Positions 4,935 to 54,641 of a stretch of 64,000 bases of DNA are shown here, piece after piece. The notes below the pieces were generated by a model. That model was not told the origin of the DNA, did not search any database, and was given only the letters and a program-made list of their open reading frames with translations. The DNA lies in NCBI RefSeq assembly GCF_004010195.1, contig NC_057755.1, positions 1,043,306 through 1,107,305 of the forward strand. The letters are read 5' to 3'. The number at the start of each line of letters is the position of its first letter. Positions within the stretch are counted from its first letter, which is position 1. Position numbers and translations under genes: made by a program. The stretch is from Chiloscyllium plagiosum (Eukaryota).

Positions 4935-5386
4935 AGTCAAATTATTCTACTAATCCCAGGTGGTTGGGTTTTAAGTGGTTTGATATAATTTTAACCCCTT
5001 TCATCCCATTCGTGTTAATTCCATTAATGAACATTCTGATGGTCAGGTACATTTTAACGGCCAGTCGAGGCCACAAGAGCCTGAGGAGTCAAAGAAAGGG
5101 AGAGAGTCAAAAATACACAGATATGTAGAGCCGGAAAAAGTCGGTAATTTCCCGCCTCGCCATATCCATCAGCCTCATATTTCTGTGGGTAGTGTACGGT
5201 GCCAACATCCTCTACTTTAGCATTAAAGAAGCACATCATTGGTGGAACTGGCATCTGATCAATTTCACCTGGTCCGGAGAATTGCTGAAGGATTTAAGCT
5301 GCAGCATGAGCACATTATTTTGGGCAGCGACTCTGCCCAAGTTCAGAGCGAAGTTCAAGAATGCGGTGCAGCAATTGGTCACATAA
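4935..5386 (+). pseudogene. GPR139-like GPCR pseudogene copy A (ECL2 to C-terminus only)
   Basis: Colinear with 19185-19636; about 870 bp (acceptor through ECL2) deleted at 4934/4935; in-frame TAG at 5126-5128 where copy B has GAG. Confidence 0.92.
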
Positions 5387-5781
5387 ATAATTCACTTAGG
5401 ATGGAAAGATGATAGAAAGAGGCTGGAGGAATAATTTTAAATGATTGACTGGCTGTGAGTGATGTGTTCAACTCGAACATTGGGTCTTCACAGATTGCCC
5501 TTTGGATAAGTGTTAAAAGCCAGCAGGATGTGTCTCTGCGTTTTCCCTGCAGGGGAGGAGGGGGAAGGAAAGAAACAGCCGTTCCTGCACCATGATGATT
5601 GTCAGACTCTCTCCGTTCGGTTCGCAATAAACACTTTATTACAGTAAGGAAAGGCTCCAGGTGCTGTTGATCCATCATCACATCTTCCGCTGTCAGTCTG
5701 TCTGTACTTGTGAGCGTGCGTCTGTGTGTGTGAAAGCGCGCATGCATGTGTGTGTAGATTTGTTCATGTCTCTCAGTATGA

Positions 5782-6100
5782 GAGTGGGCGGCACGGTGGC
5801 ACAGTGGTTAGCACTGCTGCCTCGCAGCGCCAGAGACCCGGGTTCAATTCCCGACTCAGGCGACTGACTGTGTGGAGTTTGCACGTTCTCCCCGTGTCTG
5901 CGTGGGTTTCCTCCGGGGGCTCCGGTTTCCTCCCACAGTCCAAAGATGTGCAAGTCAGGTGAATTGGCCATGCTAAATAGCCGGTAGTGTTAGGTAAAGG
6001 GGTAAATGTAGGGGTATGGGTGGGTTACGCTTCGGCGGGTCGGTGTGGACTTGTTGGGCCGAAGGGCCTGTTTCCACACTGTAAGTAATCTAATCTAATC
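5782..6100 (+). mobile_element. HE1-type tRNA-derived V-SINE, full length
   Basis: A box TGGCACAGTGG at 5797-5807 and B box GGTTCAATTCC at 5841-5851; V-domain (gtggagtttgcacgttctcccc...ggtttcctcccaca); CR1-like 3' end; (TAATC)n tail; TSD TATGA at 5777-5781 and 6101-6105; site empty in paralogs near 20970 and 56365. Confidence 0.93.
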
Positions 6101-6105
6101 TATGA

Positions 6106-6500: not shown

Positions 6501-9264
6501 ATCATAAGACTCCGTCTCCTGAAAAATGACAAGTGAACTCTACAGCAGGTCATGATGCACAGAGTTCTGTCAATGGCATATTTCTGGCAACCTGGGAAAT
6601 ATCTGAATATCAATATCAGTACCTCCTGCACTCTAAGAGCTGAACTGTTACTTCAGTTCAAGGACCTAAGTTTAATGAACGAATCAAGACAGAGTAATAT
6701 TCAGTGAAAGGCAGGATGCCAATTCTTTTGTCCAGATTGAACCAAGGATGCAATTTATAAATATTGTTTTCTTGTTGAAGGTGTTTGCGTCCCTCTATAA
6801 ATAAAGTTACATATTGGATCATGAGGCTATACATTGCAGGAGCGGATTAGTCCATTCAGCCCGTCGACTGTGCTCTGCCATTTGATCATGGAGGATCTGT
6901 TTTTCAATTCTACTCTTCTGCCTTCTGCCCATAACTTTTTATTCTCTTCACAATCAGGAACCCATATATCAGTATTGTTAATACATTTGTTAAGGAGCAG
7001 ATTAGACCCTCTCAAAACATGTCAGGATGGTAGCCCAGACCCTAACTCTTCTACTTGCTTTGAGCAGGTGTGGAATGGATATTCCTGGAGTGATGGAGCT
7101 GATTAGGATTCCTCGGTTTTAAATAAAACAGGATATATTTACAGTTTACCGAGTAGAACACAAACAATGGAGAACATAACACAGAATGCATTAACCTAAC
7201 TGAAAACCAACAGATGATGCCAAATTAATGAAATCTCCAAATTCCTGCAACAATCCTGCTCAGCACCACATGTCAAAACAGGTAAAATTAAACACCGGAT
7301 CTTACATGGGAGATGTCAGGGAGAGGTTCAGCATCAAACAATTTCTTCCCTGTCGCTGTTCCTTTTACCATCAATCTAAAAAACTGACTGCTTGCTAACA
7401 CGCAAACCAAACTAAACCATATCAGAGAAAAGCTGAGCTGGGAGAATTCGCCACTCCACTTCCATTGCCTTTTTTGGCTGTAAGAAGCATTTTGCTGAGG
7501 CAGTCTCTGTTAGGTATCATGAAATTCGCCCGACAACACGACCAAACTTGAAACCCCAGAACCGTTGCATTTGCAAACAATGTAAGAAAAAAAAGGTATC
7601 ACAACCTTGGTAGAGGAACAGCACCATCACATATTCAATATCCCGATCTCCACAGCCATCTGCGGCAATGATTTCCATCAATCAACCACGCTGTGGCTGA
7701 CTAAATTCATTCTCAACTCAGTTCTAAAGGTGGTCGCTTCACACTGAGGCCGTGGCTTCCGGTCCTAGTTTCTCCTACATGTCAATAGAGATGTTCACGC
7801 TTTTTCATAAATATTTTTGTGTCTTGGAACCTTTACAGGTGATATACAAGCATTGCCATGCATTGCAGCTGTACACGTTAATAGATGAAATATCGTTCTT
7901 TGGAAGTGTTTATGAGTGCATAAATATTGTCATGTATTGGAACTGTTCCTGTTTATGTATACTGCGCTGTAATGGAACTGTTCATGTTTGTAAATAAATA
8001 TTGTTCTGTATTGGAGCTGTTCCTGTTTATCGATAAACATCAGTGTGTGTTGAAGCTGTGCCTGTCTCCTAATCGTCAGCAACACTGTGTCTGACGATAT
8101 GGTGTGAATGCTGAGCTCCACCTGTGCTTTGGGATGGATCTGCCGTCCCAGTGTCTCCAGGAGGGGTAGCTGCACACAGCAGCATCTGGCACATATTAGC
8201 GGTTTTCAGCAATAAATAGGCAGGGTCATCTGATTTCAAATTATATATTCGGGGAATAATGACTGAAGAGCACCGGGGAACAGTGAGAGTTAAAAAGAGA
8301 CAGAGTAGGCGTTAAAGATTGTAATAGACAGACAATTCACGAGCGAATAATTTGGAAAGTATTAAACTAACAGTATTAAGGAGAAGATTAAATAGAAAGT
8401 AATAGGACATGGATTTTTAAAATTGAACAAGGATAGGATTAAATACAGAAGAAGAGCATATAATTTAAAATAAAGTAATGGAGAGAGGGGTAAATGGAGA
8501 GGTATGGAAAGAAGATGGAGTAGAGTGGAGCAGGCAAAGGGTAAAAGAAAGGGGAAAGGGAGAGGATTGAATTCAAAGTAATAGGAGGAGAGATATACAC
8601 AGATATATACAGTAGAATGAAGTATGTTGATTTCGCGGGGTGCAGGTGAGAGGGTTAATGCAGGAAACGCTGTAGTGATTATAATAAGATCAGTCAGGTG
8701 GATCTCAAGGGCCCCCTTACACCCCACCCGGTCCCCACAAAAGCCCTTTGTTCTTCAGCTTTCTGCAGTTGTTTTACATTGAAAAAAGTAGTCAGTTCTT
8801 GTCCTCTGCTGCACTGCTTCGATGCCAAGTGTACTCTTCCTCAGATGAAGAGACCCAAACTGGGCTACTCCATCAGGAGTGGGTATGTCCAGTCTCCATG
8901 GAATTGCAGACCTGTACCATTCCCTCCTGAGCTCAAGTCCATTATCTCCAAAGTAGCATTTGCCTTTCTCATAGCCTGCTGCACCTACACGTTGGCTTCC
9001 AATGACTCAGGAACAAGGACAGAAAGCGATCCCTTTTGGTGTTCAAAACATCTCAATCCCTATAATTTATCAAAAATTCTTTCAGATTATTTCTCCTCTA
9101 ACAAAATCGCTAACATCACATTTATTTATGTTTCATCTGTCATGTTATTTCTCAGACACTCCATACTCTCCACACTCAGAAAACAACTATGCACACCACA
9201 ATGCAATCATCGATCTCTGCAATATTACATCTGCAGTGATCTACAGTAAGCAGGTTAGCAGATT

Positions 9265-10889: not shown

Positions 10890-10896
10890 TATAAAT
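10890..10896 (+). promoter_or_regulatory. Candidate TATA box of GPCR copy B
   Basis: TATAAAT about 75 nt upstream of the exon 1 ATG; conserved at 45152-45158 in copy D. Confidence 0.6.
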
Positions 10897-10970
10897 GAAA
10901 GGCTTTGAGATTGTATCTCCTCGGTATTGAGTACAGAGAGATCGCCTGCACAAAGAGATTCAGACAGAAA

Positions 10971-11037
10971 ATGCCGTTCTCATTTGGTCATTTACGGTCA
11001 ATATTTTACACGACCTTTCCGTTTGTAACAATTCCTA
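10971..11037 (+). CDS. GPR139-like GPCR copy B, coding exon 1 (MPFSFGHLRSIFYTTFPFVTIP plus 1 nt)
   Basis: ATG with A at -3; 67-nt open frame ending at a GTAAGT donor (11038); phase 1 matches the acceptor at 18761; supplies the missing first half of TM1; conserved at 45233-45299. Confidence 0.8.
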
Positions 11038-11334
11038 GTAAGTGCCTTGCAACATTGAATTTATGTGAAACTGGCTGAGGATTATCTGCGGGTTCACTCT
11101 GCCACTGACAAGTATAAATGTGCATGTTGTTCCCAAAAGTCACACAGTGGCAGAAGATCAGTAATTTAGTCTCAGATTACGGACACTCCTTAGAATCCCC
11201 AACATCGCAGATTCCGAAGGAACTGCCTGGGAAATTATTCATCTCTTCTGGGAACTGCCAGAATTCATTTCCACTTAAATCCGACACCACGGAGAATGTC
11301 GAAGAATGAAGAAAATGAATCATTTTGGAAATTA

Positions 11335-12315
11335 TATGCGGTAGTATTTTTATGTAGAAAGTACAAAATCTTTTAGTTTGTGTTTGCTTCTAATTCTTTT
11401 GAGTGAATAAGCAATCGGATTCTGTGACCATCTGAATTTAATGGTTACCTTGAAATTATTGGTTTTATTGAATTTAATGGTTACCTTGTAATCACAGAAA
11501 TTTGTTTTAAAAATCACGTTTGGGATTTGACTATAGGCTGAATGGGTTTGTGCACGAGTGAACCTTTGTTTACTTTTGATGCTTGCAATCGAACATAATA
11601 TTAATGGAGTCTGAAAGATATGGAGTTTGGGATTATAGAAGAAAGCCGTAACTGAGGAAGCATAACTTTCACTTCTTTCATTTCATCACTTTCTTTGATC
11701 CCTGTAAGAGCCTGAGTGGACGAAAAGATCAGCGCTCAGGTGAAGGAAAGGAAAGATTTGGTAAATTCCATTGCCTTGGATTGAAAATCTTGTGCTGGTC
11801 CCAGGCAGAAGTGCTATCACAAAAAAAAAGTTCTGAAGAGATTGTTTAAAGCTGATTACGTTGACATTCAGGTATGTCGGAGCTCCAGGTAGAAATTTAC
11901 TGCAGTTCCAGTTTAAAAATGGCAGTCACAAGTCATTTAACCAAATCACAGATACTGGGAGCCGGGTGTGAGTATTATGTGAGGGTTTTTTTTTGGAACG
12001 GCACTGGGAGTCGTGTTTTGTATGATATAAAGACGTTGTATCTTTTTATGCTTTGAGGTTAATGGGAATTATACATTTATTCTGTGTTCATTGCCTTTGA
12101 ATCTGCATTTTCAGTACGTAGTTTAGTTTATTCCATTTTGTCGTCATTTTGTTTGTAAGAAACTTCTGTTATGTTGTGGAGGCAATATTTGTAGCATTGT
12201 GTGTTTACGATTCAGCAAGAGATCACTTTGTAAAATTAATACAAATGAGGTTGAAATTCATTAAGCTGGGTTTCTATCGATGATCTGGCTTGTTCTTTAA
12301 TAGGTATCAGAATAT
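11335..12315. mobile_element. Possible old solo LTR or other ~1-kb interspersed repeat in intron 1
   Basis: Discrete AT-rich block, paralogous to about 45595-46597, which ends ...cagctggtatcagaaca like an LTR end; termini decayed. Confidence 0.35.
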
Positions 12316-12403
12316 CAGTGAGGCGATTAAATACTTAGACACACTCCTGAAGAACTGATTATCTAATCCCACACATCAAGGAGGTTGTGCTGCAACCATG
12401 AGA

Positions 12404-12576
12404 CAGTGAGGTCTGCAGATGCTGGAGATCAGAGTTGAGAGTTTATTGCTGGAAAAGTACAACAGGTCAGGCAGCATTCGTGGAGCAGGAAAATCGACGT
12501 TTCAAGCCAAAGTCGATTTTCCTGCTCCTTGCATGTTGCCTGACCTGCTTTGCTTTTCCAGCAATGCACTCTCAAC
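12404..12576. mobile_element. Fold-back Penelope-like terminal-repeat element (inverted arms 12434-12498 and 12512-12576)
   Basis: Family head gtgaggtctgcagatgctggagatcagag; ~65-bp imperfect inverted repeat; central hammerhead region collapsed. Confidence 0.75.
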
Positions 12577-12810
12577 AGTGCCCCGACAATATCCTTCTGG
12601 ATCCATTATGTGCTCTAGACCCTGATCAGACACCCACGTTCAGATGTAATTCCATAATATCCATCACAAATTTACTACTCTCACTCTGAGCCACAGCCTA
12701 CACAAAATAAATTCCCTCACCCCCTGCTAGACCTGAAACACTGAAACTAAATGAGACACTGGGTGGCTCACACATATGCGGTTTAGTGCACAGTTTTGGT
12801 CATCTCCGAG

Positions 12811-12968
12811 AAGAAAGTGAGTACTGCAAATGCTGGAGTTCAGAGTCGAGAGTGTGTTGCTGGAAAAACACAGCAGGTCATGTAGCATCTGAAGCAAGAG
12901 ATTCGATATTTCTGGCAAGAGCCCTTCATCAGGGCTTATTTCCTGCTCCTCGGATGCAGCCTGAACTT
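12811..12968 (-). mobile_element. Penelope-like terminal-repeat element with a degenerate hammerhead core
   Basis: Same family head; minus strand 12933-12904 reads CCTGATGA-AGGGC-TCTT-GCCA-GAAA-TATC; short inverted arm follows. Confidence 0.7.
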
Positions 12969-14399
12969 TTTGTCACCACCAAGCAGTGAGGACAGAATTG
13001 CTGTAAGGAGAGTACAGACGAGATTGACAACAATGGTGTTAGTATGTGGAAATTACTGCATCATTGAGGAAAGATGCCTAAGGTAGTGTCATGTTCCATG
13101 AATAGAGGTGCATGACATTTATCATGATTGGGATGCACAAAATCATCAGTCTGTGGATTGGGAACATATCTCCCCGAACGCAGAACCATTTACCAGGAAA
13201 CACAGAGTGAACAGAATTGATGGGAGGATTATGAAGGACATGAGGACTACCATTTTATTGAGAAGATGATGGTGCGACTGGAATTCACTGCCTAGTTTTA
13301 ATGGTGGCTTGAGGTGACAAACCTTAACTCATTTAAATGAAACTTTCAACGTCAGCTGAAATATTCAATGCTGTAGAACAGGTGCTGGAAAGTGGGATCA
13401 GCACAGGGAGTTAATTTATCAATTGAAGCAGACTTGAATGACCTGTTTCAGTGCATAACTTTCATACATTTCCATGGGATTGTAGAAAAACTGAGGAGTG
13501 CTAAAGTGAATTTGCTTGCGTGGTAGAGTGCGGTTAAATGGCCTGTTTCTATATTGTCCATTTCAAGCATTAGAACACTGTGGATTGTTAAAGTAGATTC
13601 CAGAGGGTGTGGCTACCTTCCAGTCGGTCGCTGTAGAAGTGTTTGTGGGTTCATACTTCTTCTAATGTAAATAGCAACTTTACATGGGGAGGAAGAATAT
13701 TAACTGAAGTTCGAACATAAGAATGTATTAATTCATTAGTTTAATATTCATTACGTTGTTTAGTTGTCTCATTAAAATGGAAAGTTCTTATAAAAGAAGT
13801 GTTATGAAATCCTGTATTGTCGATGAACTGCTGAGTACTCAGCTTATCAATTTAAACGTTAATTACCCCGACATGATTAGAACAGAATAGAGTGTCAGAG
13901 AGAACTGATTTTATCAGGCTATATTTTATTATATAATGATTTGGAGCTGCCACATTCTATACATGCAGTAGTGAACTGTCTGCTCGCATGTGCATTGTGT
14001 AGTTTATTCATAAAATATCAATAAGCACATTCCAAAACGATTTGATTCAGATAATGCAGGAAATGCAATATAAATTTCAAAGCTCCCCATTTGCATTTTG
14101 CATTATTTGCTGATTGAATGTACAAGCCAAATTAGAACATTTCCGAAACTTGACAAGGAATTGTTCACTTTCCAATACAAACTATGAGGGATTCCGTGTG
14201 TTAACAGATCTTCAGTTTATCGTCTCAAAGAAGAGTCAGATCGTGGTTTGCACCTTTGATAATGAAGCAAACCTTTTCAGCTCTGTTGTTATTGCCCGTC
14301 AAACAATCACATCTGCTCAAGTGCAACAACTCATGCTTTTGTAATAAAAATGACCAGACGATTCCAGGTAATCCCAAATAGAGAAAGGGAAAAGATTGT

Positions 14400-17300
14400 G
14401 GCTGTGAGAGCTAATCCTTGTTTAAGGTATTTCAGGTGTCGGTGCTGAAGTACACAAAATCATCGAATATAAATTATCGTTTTATGAGTTATTGCATTGC
14501 TTTGGAAATTTGGGGAAACGAAAGATCAAAGCAACATAACTTAAAAATGGAGGGACTTTTGTGGGAGTGTTCACAGCACAAGAGCAGTTAAGTGCATGGT
14601 TTGTAAGCGTAATCTGTTTTTGTGTACATTGTATGATGTTGAGTGAGTTGTTTATGATCTGTCACTTCATTAAAAAATACAAATATAAAGCACAAGCACG
14701 ATATCAACCTTGAGCTGTGTCTTTTGAACCAGTAAGACTATGGCATTTTCTGGCCTGTAGATAATCGAGGTGCACAAATCGCCTTCAGTACAGTGATGTA
14801 CTCTTCCTGTCGGATGTGGGAGATTTGGGAGACTTTCCATGTTACTGATGATTCTGTCTACAGTAAATATGTTTGGTTGTGATTTCTATCAGATTGCATG
14901 GATCGGTTGGAGCAGTAGTTGGAGGCAATGAGGAATTTTCAGGAGCTCGGGAGTCTGATGGATGGCAGCTACAGGAAGAGAGAACAAAAGCAGACACCAT
15001 CTAGTAGATGGGTTATCTTAAGGAAAGGCAGGAGAGAGTGCAGGAGTCTCTGGTGTCTATACCCATTTTAAACAGTTATGCTGTTTTGGAAAATGCCAGG
15101 GGTGATGGACTCTTAGGGAATACAGCACGAATAGCCAAGTTTTTGGGACCAAGACTGGCTCAAATGTAATGAGGATTATGTCAGTTTCCGAGCGATAAAT
15201 TGTGAAAGGGGATTCTCTCGTCAGTGGCACAGACAGACGTTTCTGCGGCCAAGAGTGCTTATTACCTCTTGGTGCCAGGATCAAGGATATCGTGAAGAGC
15301 GTGCAAAATATTCTTAATTGAAGTGGAACCATCAGGAGGTCATTGTGTGCATTGGAACTAAAAGCATAGAAAGGAAAAAGGATTAAATTGTGAAGGGAGA
15401 ATATAAGAAGTTAGATAGGAATTAAAAAGGAGGTCCTTGAGGGTCGTCATATCTGGATTAACCTTCTTGACAAGGGCTAGTGAGTTCAGGAATAGGAGGA
15501 TAAAGCAGATGAATGCGTGGCTGAGGAGCTGGTGCAGGGTAGATAGGTTCACATTTTTTGGATCATTGGAATATATTTGGGGGAAGAAGTGACCTGAATA
15601 ACGAGGAAAGGTTGCAGCTGAATTGGAACAAAACTCATTTACTGGAAGGGAAATTTGCTCGAGATGTTCAGGAATATTGAATCTAGTAAGGTTAGAGTCG
15701 GGGGTGCAGGGTTGGGGGGTGGGGGGTGGTATGCGTGGTGTGGTGTGGCCAGGGAGATAATGAGTAAAGAAATCAGTCTGAGACTGATACGGTTGTGAAA
15801 AGGAGTTTTTCCAATCATCAGGGCAGGCAGGTTCAAAGCAGAGAATGAGCCAGGACTGACAAACTAATTTATATTTATTTCTGCACAAGATGCCCAACAG
15901 GGAAGGCAGGTGATCTGAGGGCATCGTTACAAACATGGGACTGTGATGTCATTGCAATAACACAATTGTGGTTCAGTGATAGACAGACTGGTAGCTTAAA
16001 GTTGCAGGACAGAAATGCTGTAGGAAATAAATACCGAGGCAGGCATCCTTGCAAGAGGATTCGCAGTAGGGGACAAGCGAAGACGGGAGTCCAGAAAGTG
16101 TATGTTCCTGTTGATTTAAAAGGTGAGTCTGGGAGGTCTAGGTTTTGGTTAAGAAAAAGAAGGAAGCATTCGTCAGGTATAAACAGCAGAGGTCGAGCCA
16201 ATCCTGAGGAGAGTATAAAGGCAGTAGGAGTATGCTTAAGAGGGAAGTCAAGAGGACATATGGCCGCTTTGGCAAAAAAGGATTATGGAGAATCCAAGGG
16301 GATTTCATAAATGCATCAGGATGAAAGGGTACCTGAGGAGAGAAAAAGACCCCTCAAAGATCAGCATGGCAGCCTGGGTGTGGAGCTGCTGAAGATTGCG
16401 GAGGTACTAATCAAGTATTGTATATTATTGTTCACTGTGGAGAAAGACCTGGAATATATGGAATGTGGGGAAATATATGGCACTATCTTGAAAAATATCC
16501 ATATTGCAGAGCAGGATGTGCTGGCTGTCAAATAATACCTCAAATTTGATAAACCTCCAGGATCTAATCTGTGGGAATCTAGGGATGTGATTGCTGCACT
16601 CTTGTTGAGATACTTGGATAACCAATCATCACAGGTGAGGTATCGGAAGACGGGATTTTGTCTCATGTGTGCCGCTGTTTAAGAAAGATTGTAAGGAAAA
16701 TTCAGCGAACTATAGACTGGTGAGCCTGACATTGGTGGTGGGCGAGGTGGTGTAGGGAGATCCTGATAGACAGGCTTGACATGTACCCTGTATTTGGACA
16801 GGCAAAGACTAATTAGTGTTTGTCCACATGGCTTTGCATGTGGGAAATCATGAGCTTTTTAAAGAAGTCACGAAGAGGATTGATGAGGGCAGAATGGTGG
16901 ATGTGATCTATGTGGACTTCAGCAAGGAGTTTGATATGGATTATCATGGTCAACTGTTAGCAAGGTTATACCAAATGCAATTGAGGGAGAACTAGCTATT
17001 CGGATACAAAACTCGCTCGAAAGTAAAAGACAGAGTGTGGTTAGAGTGGGTTGCTTTTCAGACTGGAGGCCTGTGACTAGTGGGGTCCCACAAGGATGGA
17101 TGCTTATTCGGTGCTTTGTCTCGTTTATGTAAATGACATCGTTGTAAATATGGGAGGTATGGTTACTAAGTTTGCAAATGTCACTAAAATTGGAAGTGTG
17201 GTAGACAGCGAAGAAAGTTGCCTCAGTGTACAACGAGATATTGAACAGATAGGTCAAAGGGGCGAGGAGGTGCAGGTGGAGTTTAATTTCGATAAATGGG

Positions 17301-18062
17301 AGATGCAGCATTTTGGAATGGCAAACCTGTACACATAATGGCAAGATCCTGGGGAGTGTTGCTGAACAAAGAGACCTTGAAGTGCAGTTTCATAGTTCCT
17401 TGAAAGTGGAGTCAATGGTAGATCGGATAGTGAAGAAAGTGTTTGTTATGTGCTCCATTATTTTTCAGAGCATGGATTGTACGAGTTGTGAGGTCATGTT
17501 GCGGTCAGACAGGACATTGGTTAGTCCACCTTTGGAAAAAGTGTTTGTAATTCTGGTCGCCCTCCTGTCAGAAGGATGGTGTGAAACATGAAGGGGTTCA
17601 TAAGAAATTTAGAAAGATGTTGCCAGATTGGGACGGTTTGAGCGACAGAGGAAGTCTGAATAGGCTGGGTCTGTTTTTAATGGAGCGTTGGAGGCTGAGT
17701 GGTGATCTTATAGAACTTTGTAAAATCATGAGTGGTATGGAAAGGATAAATAGACAAACAATTTTACTCTGGGGTGGGAGGGTCCAAAGGTAGAGAGCAT
17801 AAGTTCAGGGTCACAGGATGTTAAAGGTACAGAATGGAAAATCTTTCTCATGCAACGGGCGGAGCATGTATAGAATGAACTGCCAGAGAAAGTGGTGGAG
17901 ACTGGAACAATTGCAACATTTCAAAATTAAACAGATGGGTAAATTATGAGAAAGGTTTAGAGGCATATGGGGGCAAATGGGATGATATTATTATAGAATA
18001 TCTGGTCAACCATGACGATTTGGACCAATGGGTCTGTTTCCTTGCTCTACACTTCTTTGACA
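14400..18062 (+). mobile_element. Near full-length old CR1 LINE in intron 1 of GPCR copy B (5'UTR, ORF1 with GDSL/SGNH esterase remnants, decayed ORF2)
   Basis: ORF1 remnants SSCRMWE (about 14800), KGDSLVSGTDRRFCG (15205-15250), GARIKD and VIVCIG; ORF2 RT remnants 16650-17900; CR1 3' end about 18020-18060; 5' boundary approximate. Confidence 0.85.
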
Positions 18063-18761
18063 CGATCTCCGTCTAGCATGCTAACAGCAGTTAAACAAAT
18101 ATTTCATCGTAAATGAATACCAACAATATGAATCTCAATTCCATTGTGGAAATCAATCCCCGTCATTTGTTTTCAATGATAGGTCCTTGTGCAAGGAGTA
18201 AACCGAGTTGATGTTTTGAATTCCTTGAGAAATATTCAGAGGAAGATGTTACAATGTAGAAAAATTGTATTAATTCTAATTCTCTCTCCATAGCTACCAC
18301 ACCTGTTGCGTTTCACCAGCTACATCTGTTTTATTTTCATATTTCTGGTATCCATAGTTCTTTTATTTATTTTATTAAAAAATTTCACTTCTCAGAAGTA
18401 ATTCTTAGAATTGTGGAATCTGACTGTACCAAAGAGGTCTGTTAGTCCATCAAGTCTGTGCTATCAATGCTGGACTATATATGGTCTCGTCCCAGATGAC
18501 TGTCAAAGTTTGAAACGTTTCCAACATCTGAAACCCTCCCAAGCACTGAATTATTAGAACCCGCACCATTACCTGGGTGAAAGTCTTTTTCACAAATGTC
18601 CTCCAATCTGTCTATGAGTCACCTTAAATATTATGCCCTTTTGCCACCTGCCAATTCCTTGTTCAACTTAGATTTGAAGATATTCTATTGCTCTCTTGGC
18701 AGACATGGACAATGATTGATCAGTGACTTCCGATTTGTATTTTAAATTCTGTCTCTTTCAG

Positions 18762-19636
18762 TTAATTTCCTGCTGATTTTGGTTCTCTCACGGGGAAAGT
18801 GTGGCCTCTCTAACTGCACAACCCGCTGCCTATTGGCTATGGCAATGTCGGATCTACTGTTCATTCTCACGAAGGTCATGCTATGGCATTGGAAAGAACT
18901 TTACTGCCAAGGCTGTTTCCTCACCATCACCCCTGTGTGCAGAACTGTCTTTTTCCTGATGCGTGTTGCCACAGACTGTTCTGTCTGGTTCACTCTTCTT
19001 TTCTCCTTTGATCGTTATGTGGCCATTTGCTGCCTGAAACTGAAGAGAAAATATTGGGTAGAAAAAGCCCAGGCTGTGGCTCTGGCTGCAACCAGCATTC
19101 TGGTCTGTTCAAAAAACATTCCCTTCTATTTTCGGAATAAACCTGCGTCAATAGTTGACAATGTTCCGAGGTATTGCCAGATAAAGTCAAGTTATTTTAC
19201 TGATCCCAGGTGGCTGGGCTTTAAGTGGTTTGATATAGTTTTCACCCCTTTCATCCCATTCGTGTTAATTCTGTTGATGAACATTCTGATGGTCAGGTAC
19301 ATTTTAATGGCTATTCGAGTCCGGAAGAGACTGAGGGGTCAGACGAAGGGAGAGAGTCACAAAGACACAGATATGGAGAACCGGAGGAATTCGGTGATTT
19401 CCCTCCTCGCCATATCCATCAGCCTCATACTTCTCTGGGTAGTGTACGGTGCCAACATCCTCTACTTTCGTATTAAAGCAGCACATCGTTGGTGGAACTG
19501 GCGTCTGATCAATTTCACGTGGGTCGGAGAATTGCTGAAGGATTTAAGCTGCAGCACGAACACATTATTTTATGCAGCGACTCTGCCCAAGTTCAGAGAC
19601 AAGTTCAGGAATGCGGTGCAGCAATTGGTCACATAA
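18762..19636 (+). CDS. GPR139/GPR142-like class A orphan GPCR copy B, coding exon 2 (313 aa with exon 1)
   Basis: Pyrimidine tract and acceptor tctgtctctttcag at 18761; uninterrupted frame NFLLILVLSRGKCGLS, TM2 LAMAMSDLL, TM3 FSFDRYVAICC, TM5 PFVLILLMNIL, TM6 RRNSVISLLAISISLILLW, TM7 SCSTNTLFYAATLPKFR; TAA at 19634-19636. Family-level call, not an orthology claim. Confidence 0.9.
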
Positions 19637-19874
19637 ATTCTTCACTTACAATGGAAAGATGATGGAAAAAGGCTGGAGGAATGATTCTAAATGATTGACT
19701 GGCTGTGAGTGATGTGTTCCGCTGGAACATTGGGTCTTCGCAGACTACCCTTTGGATGAGTGTTAAAGGCTGGCAAGAGGGGTCTCTGCTTTTCTCCTGC
19801 AGGGGAGGAGGGGTGGGACAGAAACAGCCGTTCCAGCACCATGACAATTGCCAGACTCTCTCTGTTCAGCTCGC

Positions 19875-19880
19875 AATAAA
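19875..19880 (+). terminator. Candidate polyadenylation signal of GPCR copy B
   Basis: AATAAA about 240 nt after the stop; also present in A (5626-5631) and D (54875-54880); reads AATAAT in C. Confidence 0.5.
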
Positions 19881-19999
19881 CATTTTATAACAGCAAGGAA
19901 AGGCTCCAGGTGTTGGTGATTCCCCTCATCTGAATTGGCTATTGGAGATTGAGAGAGGTTTGTGAGTCCACCTCCTGTCAACATCCTTCACAAGGATAT

Positions 20000-24455: not shown

Positions 24456-24479
24456 GCATTTCCTATACACTGGTAATGA

Positions 24480-24700
24480 TTGTCATCAGATCGGGCAGCT
24501 GGACCATAGTGGATTTGAAATCCCTGACTGGAGCTGTTAATCTCTGCCAGTCAGTGAGACCTGGCTGATTCTAAAGGATGGAGAACGGCGATACTGAGAT
24601 GTTGAAAACCTATCTCAGTGAGAGGCTTCTGCCAAAGGCTCTGCATTTGTAAATAAATGCTGATTAATGGCCGTATGCCATACTCTGAAGTGTTGGTGCC
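24480..24700 (+). mobile_element. Probable degenerate solo LTR
   Basis: Starts TGTCAT; contains ccctgactggagctgttaa...ccagtcagtgagacctggctga and tgtaaataaa; homologous to 62066-62280 and 9265-9428. Confidence 0.5.
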
Positions 24701-25671
24701 AATGTGGACCAGGACCAAGGGCTCCTCACTTTCCACACTTTCCCGCTCTCACCTCTGTTCCATCCACAGTCCATCCCTCCCCAAAAGTGTCCTGAAAATT
24801 TTCTATGACGTTCACGACCCTGAGTCTGAGATGAGTAACGTTTTCAAGAGAATAATGGAAACTACTGACAGTAAATGGATGGAAAGGCTTCTTGTTGCCG
24901 CTTAACTTGGAACGAGGATGAGCATCTAAATGTTTGTCAATGTTTGGAAGTTTTTCCAAGACTGAAATGAATTGACAATGCCTCGCATTTCTCGACATGA
25001 TATTGCACAGAGCATTTGTGTTCATTCACGCATGAACCTGTCCTTCCCCTTCTCAGCGATCCTATGTCCTCTTTGTCTTTTACTGTCCCACCTGACATTG
25101 TGCTATCAACAAACGTCAGACATGATTCGATCATCTCAGTCATTGATAGAGATCATAAATGGCTGTGTGTGGAGAAATTATCCTTGTCTCACTCACTGGT
25201 ACCAGACCGACAACATGAAAATGACATATTTATTCCTGCCCTCTGTTTCCTGCCCTTTATCATGCTTCACGCCAAGTCCCATTTTCCCATCACCACAGGC
25301 CTCATTGACAACAGTGACTCCCGCTAAAATAATTCCAGAGTTTGATATTTCTGCATATTTGTGTGCGCAAATCCCTCACTAGCTTTACTCCATCATTTCA
25401 CTTGAAGCTGGTAAAAACCATCATCAGTCAGGTGTTTTCGGTTTCTTCTCTATACATGAGCAGTACAGTTCAGGGACCAGAGAAAAACTCATCCGCATGT
25501 GCTGTTGCACAGATCGTACGTGTCTTAGAGTCAGCTCTGAAACATGTCCAGGACACTCATATCCTGATAGGAGGATCCGTATTGATTGAAGCTTATGTAA
25601 CCACTGAGGGTATTTTTCAGTGAATCCTTTTACTTGTTTCAATTATTGCCTGAATTGGCGAAGATATAAAG

Positions 25672-27030
25672 TCAGAGAGTCATAGAGATGTACAGCATGG
25701 AAACAGACCCTTCGGTCCAACCCGTCCATGCCAACCAGATATCCCAGCACAATCTAGTCCCACCTGCCAGCACCCGGCCCATATTCCTCCAAACCCTTCC
25801 TATTCCTATACCCATCCAAATGTCTCTTAAATGTTGTAATTGTACCAGCCTCCACCACATCCTCTGGCAGCTCATTCCATACACGTACCACCCTCTGCGT
25901 GAAAAAGTTGCCCTTCCGTCTCTTTTATATCTTTCCCCTCTCACCTTAAACCTATGACCTCTAGTTTTGGACTCCTCAACCCCAGGGAAAAGACTTTGCC
26001 TATTTATCCTATTCATGCCCCTCATAATTTTGTAAACCTCTATAAGGTCACCCCTCAGCCTCCTACGCTCCAGGGAAAACAGACCCAGCCTGTTCAGCCT
26101 CTCCCTGTAGCTCAGATCCTCCAACTCTGGCAACATCCTTGTCAATCTTTTCTGAACCCTTTCAAGTTTCATAACATTTTTCCGATAGGAAGGAGACCAG
26201 AATTGCACGCAATATTCCACAGTAAATACTGATGCAAAATATTAATTTAGTAACTCCCCCATTTTCTGTGGCTCCACACGAAGGCCGCCTTGCTGATGTT
26301 TAAGGGGCCCTATTCTCTCCCTAGTTACGCTTTTGTCCTTCATATATTTTTAAAACCCCTTTGGATTCTCCTTAATTCTATTTGCCAAAGCTATCTCACG
26401 TCCCCAGTTTGCCCTCCAGATTTCCCTCTAATTATACTCCTACTTTGTTTATACTCTTCTAAGGATTCACTCGATCTATCCTGTCTTTACCTGACATGTG
26501 CTTCCTCCTTTTTCTTAACCAAACCCTCAATTTCTTTCGTCATCCAGCATTCTCTACACCTACCAGCCTTCCCTTTCACCTTGAGAGGAATATACTTTCT
26601 CTGGACTCTCGTTATCTTATTTCTGAAGACTTCCCATTTTCCAGCTCTCCCTTTACCTGCGAACATCTGCCTCCAATCTGCTTTCGAAAGTTCTTGCCTA
26701 ATAATGGCCTTTCTCAAATTTAGAACTTCAACTTTTAGATCTGGTCTATCCTTTTCCATCACTATTTTAAAACGAATAGAATTATGGTCGCTGGCCCCAA
26801 AGTGCTCCCCCACTGACACCTCAGTCACCTGCCCTACTTTATTTCCCAAGAGTAGGTCAAGTTTTGCACCTTCTCTAGTAGGTACATCCACATACTGAAT
26901 CAGAAAATTGTCTTGTACACACTTAAGAAATTCCTCTCCATCTAACCCTTTAACACTATGGCAGACCCAGTCGATGTTTGGAAAGTTAAAATTCCCTACC
27001 ATAACTACCCTATTATTCTTACAGATAGCT
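25672..27030 (-). mobile_element. CR1/HER1-type LINE, endonuclease region fused to the C-terminus and 3' end (RT deleted at about 26220)
   Basis: ORF 26487-27002 has APE motifs GNFNFPNIDW, PTREGAKLDLLL and SDHN; ORF 25672-26220 has EYCVQFWSP and RRLRGDLIEVYKI; 3' end at about 25675. Confidence 0.93.
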
Positions 27031-32760: not shown

Positions 32761-32807
32761 GATTTGTGGGACTTGGGCGTCGCTGACTGGCCAGTATTGA
32801 TATCACA

Positions 32808-37329: not shown

Positions 37330-38188
37330 TTAAGTTCCTGGTGATTTTGGTCCTCCACATGCAAGGTGCGATCTCTAACTGGACAACGCACTGCCCAGTG
37401 GCTGTGGCAACGTCGGATCTACTGTTCATTTTCACGAAGAACATATTGTGGCAACTCGAATTCTTTTAATTCCCAAGGTGTTTCCTGGACCTTACCCCTG
37501 TGTACAGTTCTGTCTTTGTCCTGGTCAGTCAACCACAGACTGTTCCACCTGATTCACTGTCCTTTTCTACATTGATCGTTTTGTGGCCAATTGCTGCCTG
37601 AAAATGAAGAGAAAATATTGGACAGAAAAAACCTTCACTGTGACTCTCGTGACAACTGGAATTCTGCTCTGTTCAAAAAATACTCGCTTCCATTTTTGGT
37701 GTAAACCTATGAAGATAATTGACAATGTTCCCTGGTTGTGCCGAACAATGTCAAGTTATTTTACTGATCCCAGATGGCTGGGATTTACGTGTTTTAATAT
37801 CATTTTAACCACATTCATCCCATTCGTGTTAATTCTGTTGATGAATAAACTGAAGGTCAGGTACATTTTAGTGACGAGTCTAGTCCTCAAGGGCCTAAGG
37901 GGTCAGAGGAACGGATGGAGTCGCAAAGACACAGAGATTGAGTGCCGGAGGACGTCAGTGATTTACCTCCTCACTATACCCATCAGATTCATACTTGTGT
38001 GGTTAGTATATGGTGGAGGTATCTTATACTTTGGCATCAAAGGAACGAATGTAGTAAAGTACAAATATCTAGTTGATTTTAAGTCTATCGGAGAAATGCT
38101 GAAGGATTTCAGCCGCAGCACGAACATATTATTTTATGCAGTGACTCGGCCCAAGTTCAGAGCGAAGTTCAGGAATGTGGTCACGTAA
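37330..38188 (+). pseudogene. GPR139-like GPCR pseudogene copy C (divergent subtype)
   Basis: Acceptor mutated (ctttcaa instead of ctttcag); frameshifts and a stop in TM1-TM3; the 3' frame 37583-38188 still reads FTDPRWLGF, PFVLILLMN and STNILFYAVTRPKFR; no exon 1 found upstream. Confidence 0.9.
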
Positions 38189-45151: not shown

Positions 45152-45158
45152 TATAAAT
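45152..45158 (+). promoter_or_regulatory. Candidate TATA box of GPCR copy D
   Basis: TATAAAT at the same spacing from the ATG as in copy B. Confidence 0.5.
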
Positions 45159-45232: not shown

Positions 45233-45299
45233 ATGCCGTTCTCATTTGGCCATTTGCGGGCAATATTTTACACGACCATTCCGTTTGTAACAAGTCCTG
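45233..45299 (+). pseudogene. GPCR copy D exon 1 (MPFSFGHLRAIFYTTIPFVTSP plus G), itself intact
   Basis: 67 nt, donor G|GTAAGT at 45300; the partner exon 2 is disabled. Confidence 0.8.
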
Positions 45300-46687: not shown

Positions 46688-46886
46688 AATGAGTCTGCAG
46701 ATACTGAAGATCAGAGTTGAGAGTGTATTGCTGGAAAAGTACAGCAGGTCAGGGAGCATTCGAGGCGCAGGAATATCGACGTTTCAGCCCACAGTCCTCT
46801 TTAAGGGCTCCGGCCCAAAAAGTCGATTTTACTGTTCCTTACATGCTGCCTGACCTTCTGTGCTTTTCTAGCAATGCACTCTCAAC
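46688..46886. mobile_element. Fold-back Penelope-like element (paralog of 12404-12576)
   Basis: Inverted arms about 46716-46780 and 46822-46886; longer centre than in the paralog. Confidence 0.72.
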
Positions 46887-47119
46887 TGTGCCCCAACTAT
46901 ATCCTTCTAGATCCATTATATGCTCTAGATCCTGATCAGACATCCACGCTGAGATGTAATTCCATATTATTACTCACAATTGTACTACTCTCACTCTGAG
47001 CCACAGCCAACGCAAAATAAATTTTCTCACCACCTGCCAGACCTGTAACTCTGGAACTAAATGAGACACTGGGTTGCTCATACATATGCAGTTTAGTGCA
47101 CAGTTCTGGTCATCTCCGA

Positions 47120-47560
47120 GAAGAAAGTGAGTACTGCAGATGCTGGAGTTCAGAGTCGAGAGTGTGTTGCTGGAAAAACATAGTCAGAAACTTTTTCCCC
47201 GGGTACAAGAGAGTGTTACAAGGGGACATAAATTTAAGGTGAAGGGTGGAAGGTATAGGGGAGATGTCAGGGGTGGGTTCTTTACCCAGGGAGTGGTGGG
47301 AGCATGGAATGCGCTGCCTGTGGGAGTGGTAGAGTCAGAATCTTTGGTGACCTTTAAGCGGCAATTGGATAGGTACATGGATGGGTGCTTAAGCTAGGAC
47401 AAATGTTCGGCACAACATCGTGGGCCGAAGGGCCTGTTCTGTGCTGTATTGTTCTATGTTCTATGTTCTATGTTCTATGTCATGTGGCATTCGAAGCAGG
47501 CGATTCAACATTTCGGGCAAAAGGTCTTATTCTCCTGCTCCTCGGATGCAGCCTGACCTT
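47120..47560. mobile_element. Penelope-like element (paralog of 12811-12968) interrupted by a CR1 3' end
   Basis: Head at 47120-47179; remainder at 47479-47560. Confidence 0.7.
47180..47478 (+). mobile_element. Young CR1 3' end with (GTTCTAT)4 tail
   Basis: Highly similar to the reverse complement of 33707-34000; absent from the paralog at about 12870. Confidence 0.93.
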
Positions 47561-51900: not shown

Positions 51901-53315
51901 CGCTATTTAAGAAAGGTGGTAAGGAAAACTCCGCGAACTATAGACAGGTGAGCCTGACATTGATGGTGGGTGAGTTCTTGGAGGGAGATCCTGATCGACA
52001 GGATTTACATGTACCCTCTATTTGGATAGGCAAGTACTAATTAATGGTTGTCAACATGGCTTTGCATGTGGCAAATATGTCTAACGAACTTTATTAAGCT
52101 TTTTAAAGAAGTAACGAAGAGGATTGATGAGGTCAGAGTGGTGGATGTGATCTCAATAGACTTCAGCAAGGAGTTTGACAAGGTTCCTCATGGTAGACTG
52201 TCAGCATGATTATACCACATGCAATAGAGGGAGAACTAGCTATTTGGACGCAGAACCTTCTCGAAAATAGAATACAGACTGTGGTCAGAGAGGTTGCTAT
52301 TCAGACTGGAGGCCTGTGACCAGTGGTGTCTTACGAAAATGGGTGCTTAATCGCTTAGTTGTGTCGTTTATGTAAATGATTTCGATGTGAATATGGGAGG
52401 TATGGTTACTAAGTTTGCAAATGTCACTAAAATTGGAAGGGTAGCAGATAGCGAAGAAAGTTACCTCAGTGTACAACGGGATATTGATCAGATAGGCTAA
52501 TGGGCCGAGGATTTGCAAATGGAGTTTAATTTGGATAAATGGGAGAATCTGCATTTTGGAACGGCAAATCAGGGCATGTCCTGTACACTTAATGGCAAGA
52601 TCCTCGAGAGTGTTACTGAACAAAGAGACTTTGGAGTGCAATTTTATAGTTCCTTGAAAGTGGAGTCTTAGGTAGATAGGATAGTGAAGAAGGTGCTCGT
52701 TATGTTCTCTATTATTGTTCAGAGCATTGATTATAGGAGTTGTGTTGTCATGTTGTGGCCAGACAGTGCAATGGTTAGTCCACTTTTTGAAAATGTGTGT
52801 GCAATTCTGGTCTTCCCCCTGTTAGAAGGTTGGTGTGAAACATGAAAGGCTTCATAAGAAATTTAGATGAATGTTGCCAGGTTAGAAAGATTGAGTGACA
52901 GGGAAAGGCAGAATAGGCTGGCTTTGTTTCCAATGGAGCGCTGGAGACTGAGGGGTAATCTTATAGAAGTTTGTAAAATCAAGAGGCGTATGAAAAGGAT
53001 ATATAGACAAACACGTTTTCCTCAGGGGTGGAGGAGTCCATAGGTAGAGAGCATAGGTTCAGGGTCAGAAGAGGTAAAATGTACCGAATGGAAAACCTTT
53101 CTCATCAAAGTGTAGTCCACGTTTAGAATGAACTGCCAGAGGAATTGGTGGAGACTGGTAAAATTGCAACATTTCAACATTAAGTTGAGTAAATTATGGG
53201 AAAGGTTTAGAGAGGTATGGGGAACAAATGGGACGATGTTGTTATAGAATATCTGGTCAACCATGACGATTTGGACCAATGGGTCTGTTTCATTGTTCTA
53301 CGCTTCTTTGACTCT
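48960..53315 (+). mobile_element. Near full-length old CR1 in intron 1 of GPCR copy D
   Basis: Colinear with 14480-18060; CTSCRM at about 49300; retains an endonuclease segment deleted in copy B; small CR1 3'-end insertion at about 50918-51081. Confidence 0.85.
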
Positions 53316-54024
53316 AACTACGCCCAGCATGCTAACAGCAGTCAAACAAATATTTCATCGTAGATGAATACCAACACTATGAATCTCAATTCCATTTTGG
53401 AAATCAATCCCCATCTTATGTTTTCAATGGTAAGGCCTGGTGCGAGAAAACTGAGTTGATATTTTGAATTCCTTGAGAAATGTTCAGAGGAAGATGTTCT
53501 GATGAAGAATAATTGCATTAACTCTAATTGTCTCTCCACAGATGCTGCCACAGCTGGTGAGTTTCACCAGCTATTTCTGTTTTATTTTCATATTTCTAGT
53601 ATCCATAGCTCTTTTCTTTATTTTATAGAAATGTTTCACTTCCCAACCTACTTCCCAGAAGTAATTCTTAGAATTGTGGAATCTGACAGTACTGAAGAGG
53701 TCCGTCAGTCCATCAAGCTTGTGCTATTACGGTTAGACTATATCTCGTCTCGTCGCAGGTATCTGCCAAAGTTTGTGACGTTTCCAACCTCAACAACTCT
53801 CCCAAGCACTGAATTATTAGAACCCACACCACTATCTGGGTGAAAGTCTTTTTCTCAAATGTCTCCAAACCTTTTATGATTCACCTTAAAAAATTAAGAC
53901 CTTTTGCCATCTGTCAATTCCCTGTTCAAGTTAGATATGAAGATCTTCCATTGCTGTCTGGGCAGACATAGAATATGTTTGATCAATGACTTCCGATTCG
54001 TATCATACATTCGGTCTCTTTCAG

Positions 54025-54641
54025 TTAATTTCCTGCTGATTTTGGTTCTCTCATGAGGAAAGTGTGGCCTCTCGTTCTGCACACAGGCTGCCTGTTGGCT
54101 ATGGCAATGTCGGATCTACTGTTCATTCTCACCAAGATCATGCTGTGGCGATGGAATGCACTTTACTGCAAAGGTTGTTTACTCACCATCACCCCTGTGT
54201 GCAGAATTATCTTTGTCCTGATCCGTGTTGCCACAGACTGTTCCGTCTGGTTCACTGTCCTTTTCTCCTTTGATCGTTTTGTGACCATTTGCTGCCTGAA
54301 AATGAAGAGAAAATATTGGACAGAAAAAGCCTAACCTGAGGGGTCAGAGGAAGGGAAACAGTCACAAAGACACAGATATGGAGCGCCGGAGGAAGTCAGT
54401 CATTTCCCTCCTCGCCATATCCATCAGCCTCAAAATTCTGTGAGTAGTACACGGTGCAAACATCCTCTACTTTCGCAATGAATAGGTACATCGTTAGTGG
54501 AACTGGCGTCTGACCAAGTTCACGTGGTCTGGAGAAATGCTGACGGATTTTAGTTTCAGCACGAACACATTATTTTATGCAGCGACTCTGCCCAAGTTCA
54601 GAATGAATTTCAGGAATGCGGTTCAGCAACTGGTCACATAG
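54025..54641 (+). pseudogene. GPR139-like GPCR pseudogene copy D, exon 2
   Basis: Intact acceptor at 54024; TGA at 54054-54056 (R codon in copy B); ~260-bp deletion at about 54335 removes TM4-TM5; further stops; DRF motif retained. Confidence 0.93.

What the first reader, a model, noticed from the sequence alone, without database searches (positions are those of the whole stretch)
4935..54641. Birth-and-death tandem cluster of GPR139-like receptors, possibly an uncharacterised sensory or ligand-recognition repertoire
Seen: four same-strand paralogs, one intact and three disabled independently. A lost ~870 bp and has a TAG. C lost exon 1 and its acceptor and has frameshifts. D has a TGA and a ~260-bp deletion. 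Knowledge: mammalian GPR139 and GPR142 are single-copy aromatic amino-acid sensors, whereas tandem expansion with frequent pseudogenes is typical of chemosensory and immune receptor families. Inference: this may be a lineage-specific receptor repertoire whose function is not established.
Basis: partly seen in the sequence, partly recalled or inferred. Interest (0 to 1): 0.75.

Follow-up and report, generated by a model that had tools for sequence, protein, structure and literature searches.

The report
Shark-expanded orphan receptor gene cluster
This is a tandem cluster (one working gene, three broken ones) of a large, apparently unstudied family of shark and ray cell-surface receptors whose ligand pockets have diversified the way smell-receptor pockets do, so it may be an overlooked chemical-sensing repertoire, though where it is expressed and what it binds are unknown.

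Summary
Observation confirmed. The window (probably a carpet shark) holds four same-strand class A GPCR paralogs and the promoter-side flank of a fifth unit. B is an intact two-exon gene (313 aa). A, C and D carry private lesions. Introns differ by 13-27%, so they are not assembly duplicates. They are not GPR139 orthologs. B belongs to an elasmobranch multigene clade: 120 of 120 listed homologues are sharks or rays, 35 of them on one horn-shark contig. Its weakly supported sister is a conserved amphibian/sturgeon gene. Human GPR139 scores only 58.8 bits, and B keeps 1 of its 4 key Trp/Phe-binding residues. Across horn-shark paralogs, pocket positions vary more than other outer-helix positions (1.39 vs 0.77 bits, p=0.001). 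The pattern reverses in two single-copy ortholog clades, and the intracellular face is nearly fixed. This fits a ligand-diversified repertoire with a shared transducer. Expression and ligands are unknown, and B's dN/dS is inconclusive. Ten literature searches found no description of the family. Best reading: a chemosensory-type repertoire (0.45); immune sentinel is the main rival (0.22).

The parts
4935..5386 (+). Copy A, 3' remnant of exon 2 (pseudogene): 869-bp deletion removes the acceptor and TM1-TM4; TAG at 5126; AATAAA at 5626
7788..7790 (.). Junction where A-downstream sequence (like B-downstream 22617) meets B-upstream sequence (like D-upstream 42475); inferred loss of a C-type unit or unequal crossover
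   Evidence: self-blast; inference
10890..10895 (+). TATA box of copy B (also at 45152 for D)
10971..11037 (+). Copy B coding exon 1: 22 codons + 1 nt, short N-terminus and first half of TM1, GTAAGT donor; 61 of 67 nt identical to D exon 1
11038..18761 (+). Copy B intron, 7,724 bp, phase 1, rich in interspersed repeats
18762..19636 (+). Copy B exon 2, open frame, TM1 second half to helix 8; DRY, W6.48, N7.49/Y7.53 and the TM3-ECL2 cysteine pair are present
19875..19880 (+). Putative polyadenylation signal AATAAA of B (same context in A and D)
24470..27030 (+). Copy C upstream remnant (24470-25668) followed by a LINE fragment (25676-27030) where promoter and exon 1 should be
37330..38188 (+). 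Copy C exon 2 (pseudogene): acceptor AG to AA, several frameshifts, stops at 37467 and 37550; 78.6% identical to B
45233..45299 (+). Copy D exon 1, intact, with GTAAGT donor
54025..54641 (+). Copy D exon 2 (pseudogene): TGA 54054, 1-nt frameshift near 54083, about 257-bp deletion near 54332, stops 54441, 54483, 54495; 88.5% identical to B
62055..64000 (+). Upstream flank of a probable fifth copy (E), closer to C's flank (p 0.17) than to B's or D's (0.21-0.22); its exon 1 would lie about 200 bp past the window end

Best explanation
B is a working member of an elasmobranch multigene family of class A GPCRs that acts as a chemosensory-type repertoire: many receptors with different ligand pockets feeding one conserved intracellular transducer. 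Shown: tandem duplication and independent decay; a conserved 7TM core; a nearly invariant intracellular face; hypervariable pocket positions among paralogs. Inferred: (1) the ancestor was a GPR139/142-like sensor of aromatic amino acids or peptides, because the sister amphibian clade keeps F3.33, W6.48 and the TM7 Asn; (2) the paralogs now bind different small molecules or short peptides, since the N-terminus is only about 8 residues; (3) signalling is probably Gq/Ca2+, by analogy to GPR139; (4) the ligands are external or luminal and are read by sensory or sentinel epithelial cells (nose, oral or gill epithelium, skin or gut). Step 4 is the least supported.
For: 796 homologues at E<=0.001; 120 of 120 listed are elasmobranch (12 species), 64 from Heterodontus francisci, 35 of them on one 74.5-Mb contig at 69-93% mutual identity. 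The family forms one clade (25 of 25 rows, 95/87) with ray, skate and shark members interleaved. Mean entropy among 64 horn-shark paralogs: pocket 1.39, other outer-helix 0.77, inner-helix 0.34 bits, p=0.0012. The pattern reverses in single-copy clade I (0.17 vs 0.39, n=20) and clade II (0.76 vs 1.12, n=119) (same result on the first alignment, where 17 of the 20 most variable TM positions are pocket positions). D2.50, C-ECL2, D3.49, R3.50, P5.50, W6.48, N7.49 and Y7.53 are present in 120 of 120. Under a simple neutral model B would stay fully intact with P about 0.003. The model is a 7TM fold (pLDDT 72; Z 22.6, rmsd 3.4 over 266 residues to galanin receptor 1, tied with many class A receptors). 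GPR139 couples mainly to Gq/11 (PMC7318219, passages).
Against: No expression shown for B or any family member. Syed et al. (PMC10116579, abstract) find the catshark nose dominated by V2R microvillous neurons. The catshark atlas found no GPCR among the top 50 brain-plus-olfactory-epithelium genes (PMC11979771, passage). No O/E-type motif lies within 400 nt of the B or D promoter (0 and 0; motif recalled). Pairwise dN/dS among copies is 0.65-1.12 with intervals mostly spanning 1, and B-branch counts are 8 synonymous: 14 non-synonymous in one test and 3:9 and 2:7 in others. B departs from the family consensus at 38 of 146 near-invariant sites, against 32-35 for its Chiloscyllium relatives. Entropy is not a test of positive selection.
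Confidence: 0.45

Rival explanations
1. Immune or barrier sentinel repertoire: the same diversified pockets, but on leukocytes or mast-like cells, detecting microbial or damage-derived peptides and metabolites (in the manner of FPR or MRGPR families; analogy recalled).
For: The same clustering and pocket diversification fit immune receptors equally well. Cartilaginous fishes lack MAS1 and related receptors (PMC8455134, passage), which leaves such a role open (inference).
Against: The short N-terminus argues against chemokine-type protein ligands (inference). No immune expression data. The structural hits to chemokine receptors are tied with all class A receptors and carry no information.
Confidence: 0.22
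2. The wider family is functional, but this carpet-shark sub-cluster is largely drifting: repeat-driven segmental duplication made copies that are all dying, and B is only the last to break.
For: 3 of 4 copies are dead; B-branch dN/dS is not distinguishable from the pseudogene branches; B sits on a long subfamily branch with many departures from consensus; the spacers are LINE-rich.
Against: An open 942-nt frame, ATG, both splice sites, TATA and AATAAA all survive about 7% branch divergence (joint neutral P about 0.003, about 0.008 as best of three B-type copies). Open-frame relatives exist in Chiloscyllium and Hemiscyllium.
Confidence: 0.15
3. Receptors for a varied set of endogenous peptides or metabolites (neuroendocrine, gut or reproductive), expanded by subfunctionalisation.
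For: The wider clade is related to MIP/proctolin/FMRFamide peptide receptors (PMC12208981 section 8; atlas neighbours). GPR139 is brain-expressed and GPR142 pancreas/gut-expressed.
Against: Receptors for endogenous ligands normally keep the pocket fixed, as the two single-copy control clades do. Dozens of paralogs with turnover are not expected for such ligands (inference).
Confidence: 0.13
4. These are multiplied true GPR139/GPR142 orthologs that still sense Trp/Phe.
For: Human GPR139 is the best PDB sequence match of the family profile (E 4.2e-15); NCBI names most members 'probable GPR139'; both have two exons; W6.48 is kept.
Against: About 28% identity of P0008 to human GPR139 (my count on the alignment) against 70% for human-zebrafish orthologs. 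The profile scores human GPR139 58.8 bits but amphibian and coelacanth relatives 167-170 and invertebrate receptors 96-111. F109, H187 and N271 (PMC5430874, abstract) align to R90, D180 and E279 in B.
Confidence: 0.04
5. Assembly artefact (duplicated haplotypes).
For: A perfect 128-nt tandem duplication at window 1-256 shows that local artefacts are possible.
Against: Copies differ by 13-27% in introns; contigs of two public runs match B-specific stretches with 0-1 differences (19256-19562, 19569-19881; these runs may be the assembly's own source).
Confidence: 0.01

Closest known systems
GPR139 / GPR142 (mammalian aromatic amino-acid receptors)
   Same: Nearest solved relative by sequence; two-exon gene (PMC7318219); W6.48 and a TM7 motif without P7.50. 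An intron position in TM1 like B's is recalled for GPR139, not tested.
   Different: About 28% identity; 3 of 4 mutagenesis-defined ligand residues differ in B; P6.50 is absent in the family (not among the six commonest residues, 116 of 120 rows); multi-copy and fast-evolving instead of highly conserved.
Non-mammalian GPR139/142 relatives (clade I: amphibians and sturgeon; clade II: sharks to squamates). Possibly the GPR210A/B subtypes of PMC6504862; correspondence not tested.
   Same: Closest non-family proteins (E 8e-45 and 7e-44). Clade I is the sister group in the tree, weakly (80/63), and shares the basic ICL3 motif.
   Different: They appear as one conserved gene per species with conserved pockets. 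Sharks have their own clade II ortholog (P0326, P0329, P0333), separate from the expanded family.
Vertebrate chemoreceptor repertoires (OR, TAAR, V1R/ORA, T2R, V2R)
   Same: Tandem clusters, birth-and-death, pseudogenes, variable pocket with conserved intracellular face, short N-terminus (general features recalled). TAARs are a precedent for a brain receptor turned olfactory family (title of PMC8890504, listing only).
   Different: Not a member of any of them by sequence (best hits); coding intron in TM1; no sensory expression shown; not among the receptor families named in the abstracts of the shark chemoreceptor surveys (PMC6368271, PMC10116579).
MRGPR and FPR families (recalled)
   Same: Lineage-specific tandem expansions of class A receptors with variable pockets, serving sensory neurons or immune cells.
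   Different: Different branch of class A; no expression or ligand data here. Resemblance only.

Membership tests
Class A (rhodopsin-like) GPCR | 7tm_1 domain above the curated cut-off | tested here: met
   64.3 bits vs cut-off 30.5 for B exon 2
Class A (rhodopsin-like) GPCR | Seven-helix fold with N1.50, D2.50, DRY, P5.50, W6.48, N7.49/Y7.53 and the C3.25-ECL2 pair | tested here: met
   P6.50 and P7.50 are absent, the latter also in human GPR139
GPR139 orthologs | High conservation (70% human-zebrafish) | tested here: not met
   B has no hit to PDB GPR139 at E<=0.001; P0008 about 28%; reference value
GPR139 orthologs | Trp/Phe site F109, H187, W241, N271 | tested here: not met
   B has R90, D180, W248, E279. 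Family of 120: F at 3.33 in 9, H at the H187 column in 6, W in 120, N not among the nine commonest residues at the N271 column
GPR139 orthologs | Phylogenetic placement with GPR139 to the exclusion of other paralogs | tested here: inconclusive
   No GPR139 or GPR142 sequence was available for the tree; profile scores rank GPR139 far below clades I and II
GPR139/142 superclade (broad) | Best solved-structure match is GPR139; two-exon gene | tested here: met
Elasmobranch expanded 'probable GPR139' family | Falls inside the elasmobranch-only clade | tested here: met
   B groups with P0001 (99/97) and P0004 (100/100) inside the family clade (95/87)
Chemosensory receptor repertoire | Multigene tandem clusters with pseudogenes | tested here: met
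Chemosensory receptor repertoire | Diversified ligand pocket among paralogs | tested here: met
   (entropy, with two ortholog controls)
Chemosensory receptor repertoire | Positive selection at pocket codons | not testable with these tools
   no coding DNA for family members outside the window; no genome held
Chemosensory receptor repertoire | Sparse expression in sensory cells | tested here: inconclusive
   no RNA holder listed; one single-cell run sampled at about 2% gave no exon reads; catshark atlas supplement unreadable
Chemosensory receptor repertoire | Activation by exogenous chemicals | not testable with these tools
   needs a ligand screen

The most novel reading that the evidence does not exclude
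Sharks and rays have an additional, undescribed chemoreceptor family. It was recruited from the GPR139/142 branch independently of OR, TAAR, V1R, V2R and taste receptors, is at least tens of genes strong (64 horn-shark proteins among only the top 120 hits), and has been missed because surveys mined only the canonical families and automatic annotation labels its members 'probable GPR139'. This would revise the view that elasmobranchs have very small chemoreceptor repertoires.
Probability: 0.3. Interest if true: 0.88.

Novelty: new variant of a known kind. Interest (0 to 1): 0.66.

Why it matters
Shark chemoreceptor surveys report very few OR, TAAR and V1R genes and a modest V2R set despite a keen chemical sense (PMC6368271 and PMC10116579, abstracts), and a genome paper notes a relative paucity of GPCRs in cartilaginous fishes (PMC8455134, passage). 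A family with at least 64 distinct proteins in one shark and a diversified pocket is a concrete candidate for missing chemical-detection capacity, sensory or immune. It can be tested at once with existing catshark and bamboo-shark tissue RNA-seq. The locus in this window is only a small, mostly decayed outpost of that family; the interest lies in the family.

Tried and rejected
(1) Genome-wide count: no genome is held for this window, so the family size in this organism is unknown. Summed contig depth over B exon 2 is far above flanking low-copy bins (349-666 vs about 5-15 in X1; 878-1456 vs about 6-23 in X2). The tool states this is no copy number, so it is only a hint of many related copies.

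(2) Expression: no RNA holder listed. In X5 (single-cell, about 2 in 100 of the run read, tissue not given) 666 reads were laid, mainly on repeats, with zero depth in the bins of exon 1 and exon 2. X6 laid 0 reads (no test). X1 and X2 behave as DNA runs. No exon 1-exon 2 joint is among the 15 joints shown (162 more not shown). None of this is evidence either way.

(3) Single-exon reading: Chiloscyllium models P0001-P0003 start in the sequence upstream of the acceptor, and B has a lost ATG and two stops in that frame, which would make B a pseudogene. Rejected after finding a true exon 1 with TATA, ATG, the family's 22-codon length and a GTAAGT donor, conserved in B and D. A family exon-1 HMM missed it because the subfamily's exon 1 is diverged. 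Its best hit (minus strand, 45802, 5.8 bits) was rejected as noise against 19-48 bits for 64 true exon 1s, most of which were in the training set.

(4) dN/dS: uninformative with only pseudogenes as partners.

(5) Fold search: all class A receptors tie; GPR139 is not among the 50 rows shown, which excludes nothing.

(6) Promoter motifs (recalled patterns): no O/E site; one TAATTG in each of B and D against 0.38 expected per 400 nt, which is weak.

(7) Rfam: 0 matches. Earlier findings by sequence: none.

(8) No chimaera member appeared among 120 listed hits or 30 representatives looked up; 119 of the 149 newly listed representatives were not looked up, so absence is not shown.

(9) Literature: ten searches and supplement searches of PMC8455134 (12 of 24 files), PMC13188829 (8 files) and PMC10115646 (file 1 unreadable) found no description of the family. 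Subscription papers and the PMC11979771 supplement could not be seen and may bear on both novelty and expression.
Full report
Setting. The window is 39-47% GC per 2 kb, repeat-rich animal DNA. The best homologues of copy B are from Chiloscyllium punctatum (70-74%) and Hemiscyllium ocellatum (62-67%), so it is probably a carpet shark (inference). No genome is held.

Anatomy. tblastn with 120 homologues found four receptor-coding regions, all on the + strand (output partly cut, read together). B is a two-exon gene: TATAAA at 10890, exon 1 at 10971-11037, a phase-1 intron of 7,724 bp, exon 2 at 18762-19636 and AATAAA at 19875, giving 313 residues. Exon 1 was not obvious. A family HMM missed it, and database models of the closest relatives read through the intron end instead, a frame in which B has two stops. 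It was found by listing ATG-to-donor candidates and confirmed by its conservation in D, 61 of 67 nt with the same TATA and donor.

Lesions. A lost 869 bp and has a TAG at 5126. C lost about 3.1 kb including promoter and exon 1, has AA for AG at the acceptor, several frameshifts and two stops. D has four stops, a 1-nt frameshift and a deletion of about 257 bp. No lesion is shared. A fifth unit begins near 62055.

History of the locus. Intron p-distances are 0.13-0.14 among A, B and D and 0.27 for C against B or D; C's upstream flank is closest to E's (0.17). The simplest account is an old B-type/C-type pair repeated as a unit of about 35 kb, with the C-type partner between A and B lost at the junction near 7789 (inference). 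These distances exclude haplotype duplicates. Contigs of two public runs match B-specific stretches with 0-1 differences, though these runs may be the assembly's source.

Is B under selection? Pairwise dN/dS is 0.65-1.12 with wide intervals. Branch counts are 8 synonymous: 14 non-synonymous for B against 6: 24 plus 5 stop-associated changes for D, and 3:9 for B against 8:18 for A; I ran no significance test and the counts are small. The better argument is survival: with half of the B-D intron divergence on B's branch (0.072 substitutions per site, 3 non-triplet gaps per kb), a neutral copy keeps ATG, frame and splice sites with P about 0.003 (simple model, indel rate taken from repeat-rich intron). 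So B has probably been kept by selection for most of that time, but present function is not shown.

What family? B exon 2 has 796 homologues at E<=0.001; 120 of 120 listed are from 12 shark and ray species, nearly all auto-named 'probable GPR139'. By my tally of that table 64 are Heterodontus francisci and 35 share one 74.5-Mb contig, at 69-93% mutual identity. A profile of 78 members finds 132 representatives at E<=1e-30 in the 50%-clustered library. Of 20 looked up from the family range or its edge, 18 are elasmobranch, 1 is unnamed and 1 (E 7e-27) is amphioxus. Below the family come a salamander protein (169.6 bits), a coelacanth protein (166.6) and a teleost protein (149.6). Human GPR139 scores 58.8 bits, although it is the best PDB match, and B alone does not hit it at E<=0.001.

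Relatives and tree. The salamander protein's relatives are 20 amphibian clusters and one sturgeon protein, then family members at 32-33% (25 hits). The coelacanth protein's relatives span sharks, ray-finned fishes, amphibians, turtles and squamates, mostly one cluster per species, with no mammal named among 120 listed of 145. In a 46-row IQ-TREE tree the 25 family rows form one group (95/87), sister to the amphibian/sturgeon clade with weak support (80/63); shark members of clade II lie elsewhere (midpoint root, long outgroup branches, no GPR139 or GPR142 sequence available). PMC6504862 (passage) names extra GPR139/142 subtypes, GPR210A/B, in coelacanth, gar and fishes and has no occurrence of 'shark'; whether clades I and II are these was not tested.

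Ligand pocket. GPR139 needs F109, H187, W241 and N271 for Trp/Phe and surrogate agonists (PMC5430874, abstract). Read off the alignment, B has R90, D180, W248 and E279. Clade I has F, Q, W and N in 20 of 20, so the likely ancestor had a GPR139-like pocket (inference). I then compared column entropy at 37 generic class A pocket positions with other helix positions. The list is recalled, I had seen the per-column entropies before applying it, and the TM4 and TM6 numbering is approximate because the usual anchor residues are missing. Among 64 horn-shark paralogs the means are 1.39 (pocket), 0.77 (other outer half) and 0.34 (inner half), p=0.0012. In clade I they are 0.17, 0.39, 0.49 and in clade II 0.76, 1.12, 0.90, with the pocket lower than the outer half (p=0.017 and 0.012). 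On the first alignment the 35 same-contig paralogs alone give 1.26, 0.63, 0.28, and extracellular loops 1.06 against intracellular loops 0.24. Paralog-specific pockets on a fixed signalling face are what a repertoire for many ligands should show; general relaxation would not favour the pocket over the other outer-helix positions. It is not a codon-level test, and the sample is the top 120 hits to B only.

Mechanism. Shown: duplication and decay, 7TM fold, conserved activation motifs, diversified pocket. Inferred: small-molecule or short-peptide ligands (N-terminus about 8 residues, no N-terminal sequon); Gq/Ca2+ output by analogy to GPR139 (PMC7318219, passages); a sensory or sentinel cell type. 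The tissue is open. The only RNA test was uninformative, the catshark atlas supplement could not be read, and published work points to V2R dominance in the shark nose (PMC10116579, abstract; PMC11979771, passages). If the family is chemosensory it may act outside the nose.

Literature. Ten searches gave no paper describing this expansion. 'GPR139-like' had 0 papers, 'coupled receptor 139' with 'shark' had 1 (a snail genome), and none of the 40 listed rows contains GPR139 (3,279 and 775 papers matched; only 40 each were listed). Seen: PMC6504862, PMC11979771, PMC8455134, PMC7318219 (passages); PMC12208981 (passages and section 8); PMC5430874, PMC6368271, PMC10116579 (abstracts); supplements of PMC8455134 (12 of 24 files), PMC13188829 and PMC10115646 (term search, no hits). 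Subscription journals are not covered, so a prior description cannot be excluded. The proteins themselves are in NCBI under automatic names.

Verdict. A real birth-and-death cluster belonging to an elasmobranch-wide receptor expansion that is not GPR139 and shows the signature of a ligand-diversified repertoire. Known kind of system, apparently undescribed variant. Interest 0.66; it would rise sharply with sensory expression data.

Noticed in passing
window 1-256: Perfect 128-nt tandem duplication (2.0 copies, 100% match) inside a LINE-like stretch at the window start; may be an assembly artefact.
   Followed up: no
window 34058-35245 (-), 33689-34057 (-): LINE reverse-transcriptase fragment with a 395-aa open frame (RVT_1, E 2.3e-28); the adjoining stretch 33707-33997 is 92% identical to an inverted copy at 47182-47472, suggesting a younger insertion family.
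   Followed up: partly
window 12400-12560, 12810-12940, 32806-33016, 38930-39055, 46690-46890: Short high-copy SINE-like repeat; draws most of the single-cell reads and very high contig depth; no Rfam match.
   Followed up: no
P0001-P0003 and many of P0001-P0120: Database gene models often miss the short exon 1: 57 of 111 anchored proteins did not match the canonical exon-1 ending pattern, so annotated lengths and names in this family are unreliable.
   Followed up: partly
P0231, P0288-P0307: Conserved amphibian/sturgeon receptor that keeps 3 of 4 GPR139 ligand residues (F, W, N in 20 of 20 amphibian rows); no amniote among its 25 hits. Candidate additional aromatic amino-acid sensor.
   Followed up: partly
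P0234, P0326-P0443: Second conserved non-mammalian GPR139/142 relative, from sharks to squamates, with S/C in place of W at the 6.48 column (TM6 alignment there is less sure).
   Followed up: partly
window 18762-19636: The family lacks the TM6 proline P6.50 and has T at 7.50 in 119 of 120, yet keeps W6.48 in 120 of 120; B's subfamily also has a shortened C-terminus shared with Chiloscyllium and Hemiscyllium relatives.
   Followed up: no
window 10837 and 45098: A TAATTG homeodomain-type motif about 53 nt upstream of the TATA box is kept in both B and D promoters; weak against chance.
   Followed up: partly
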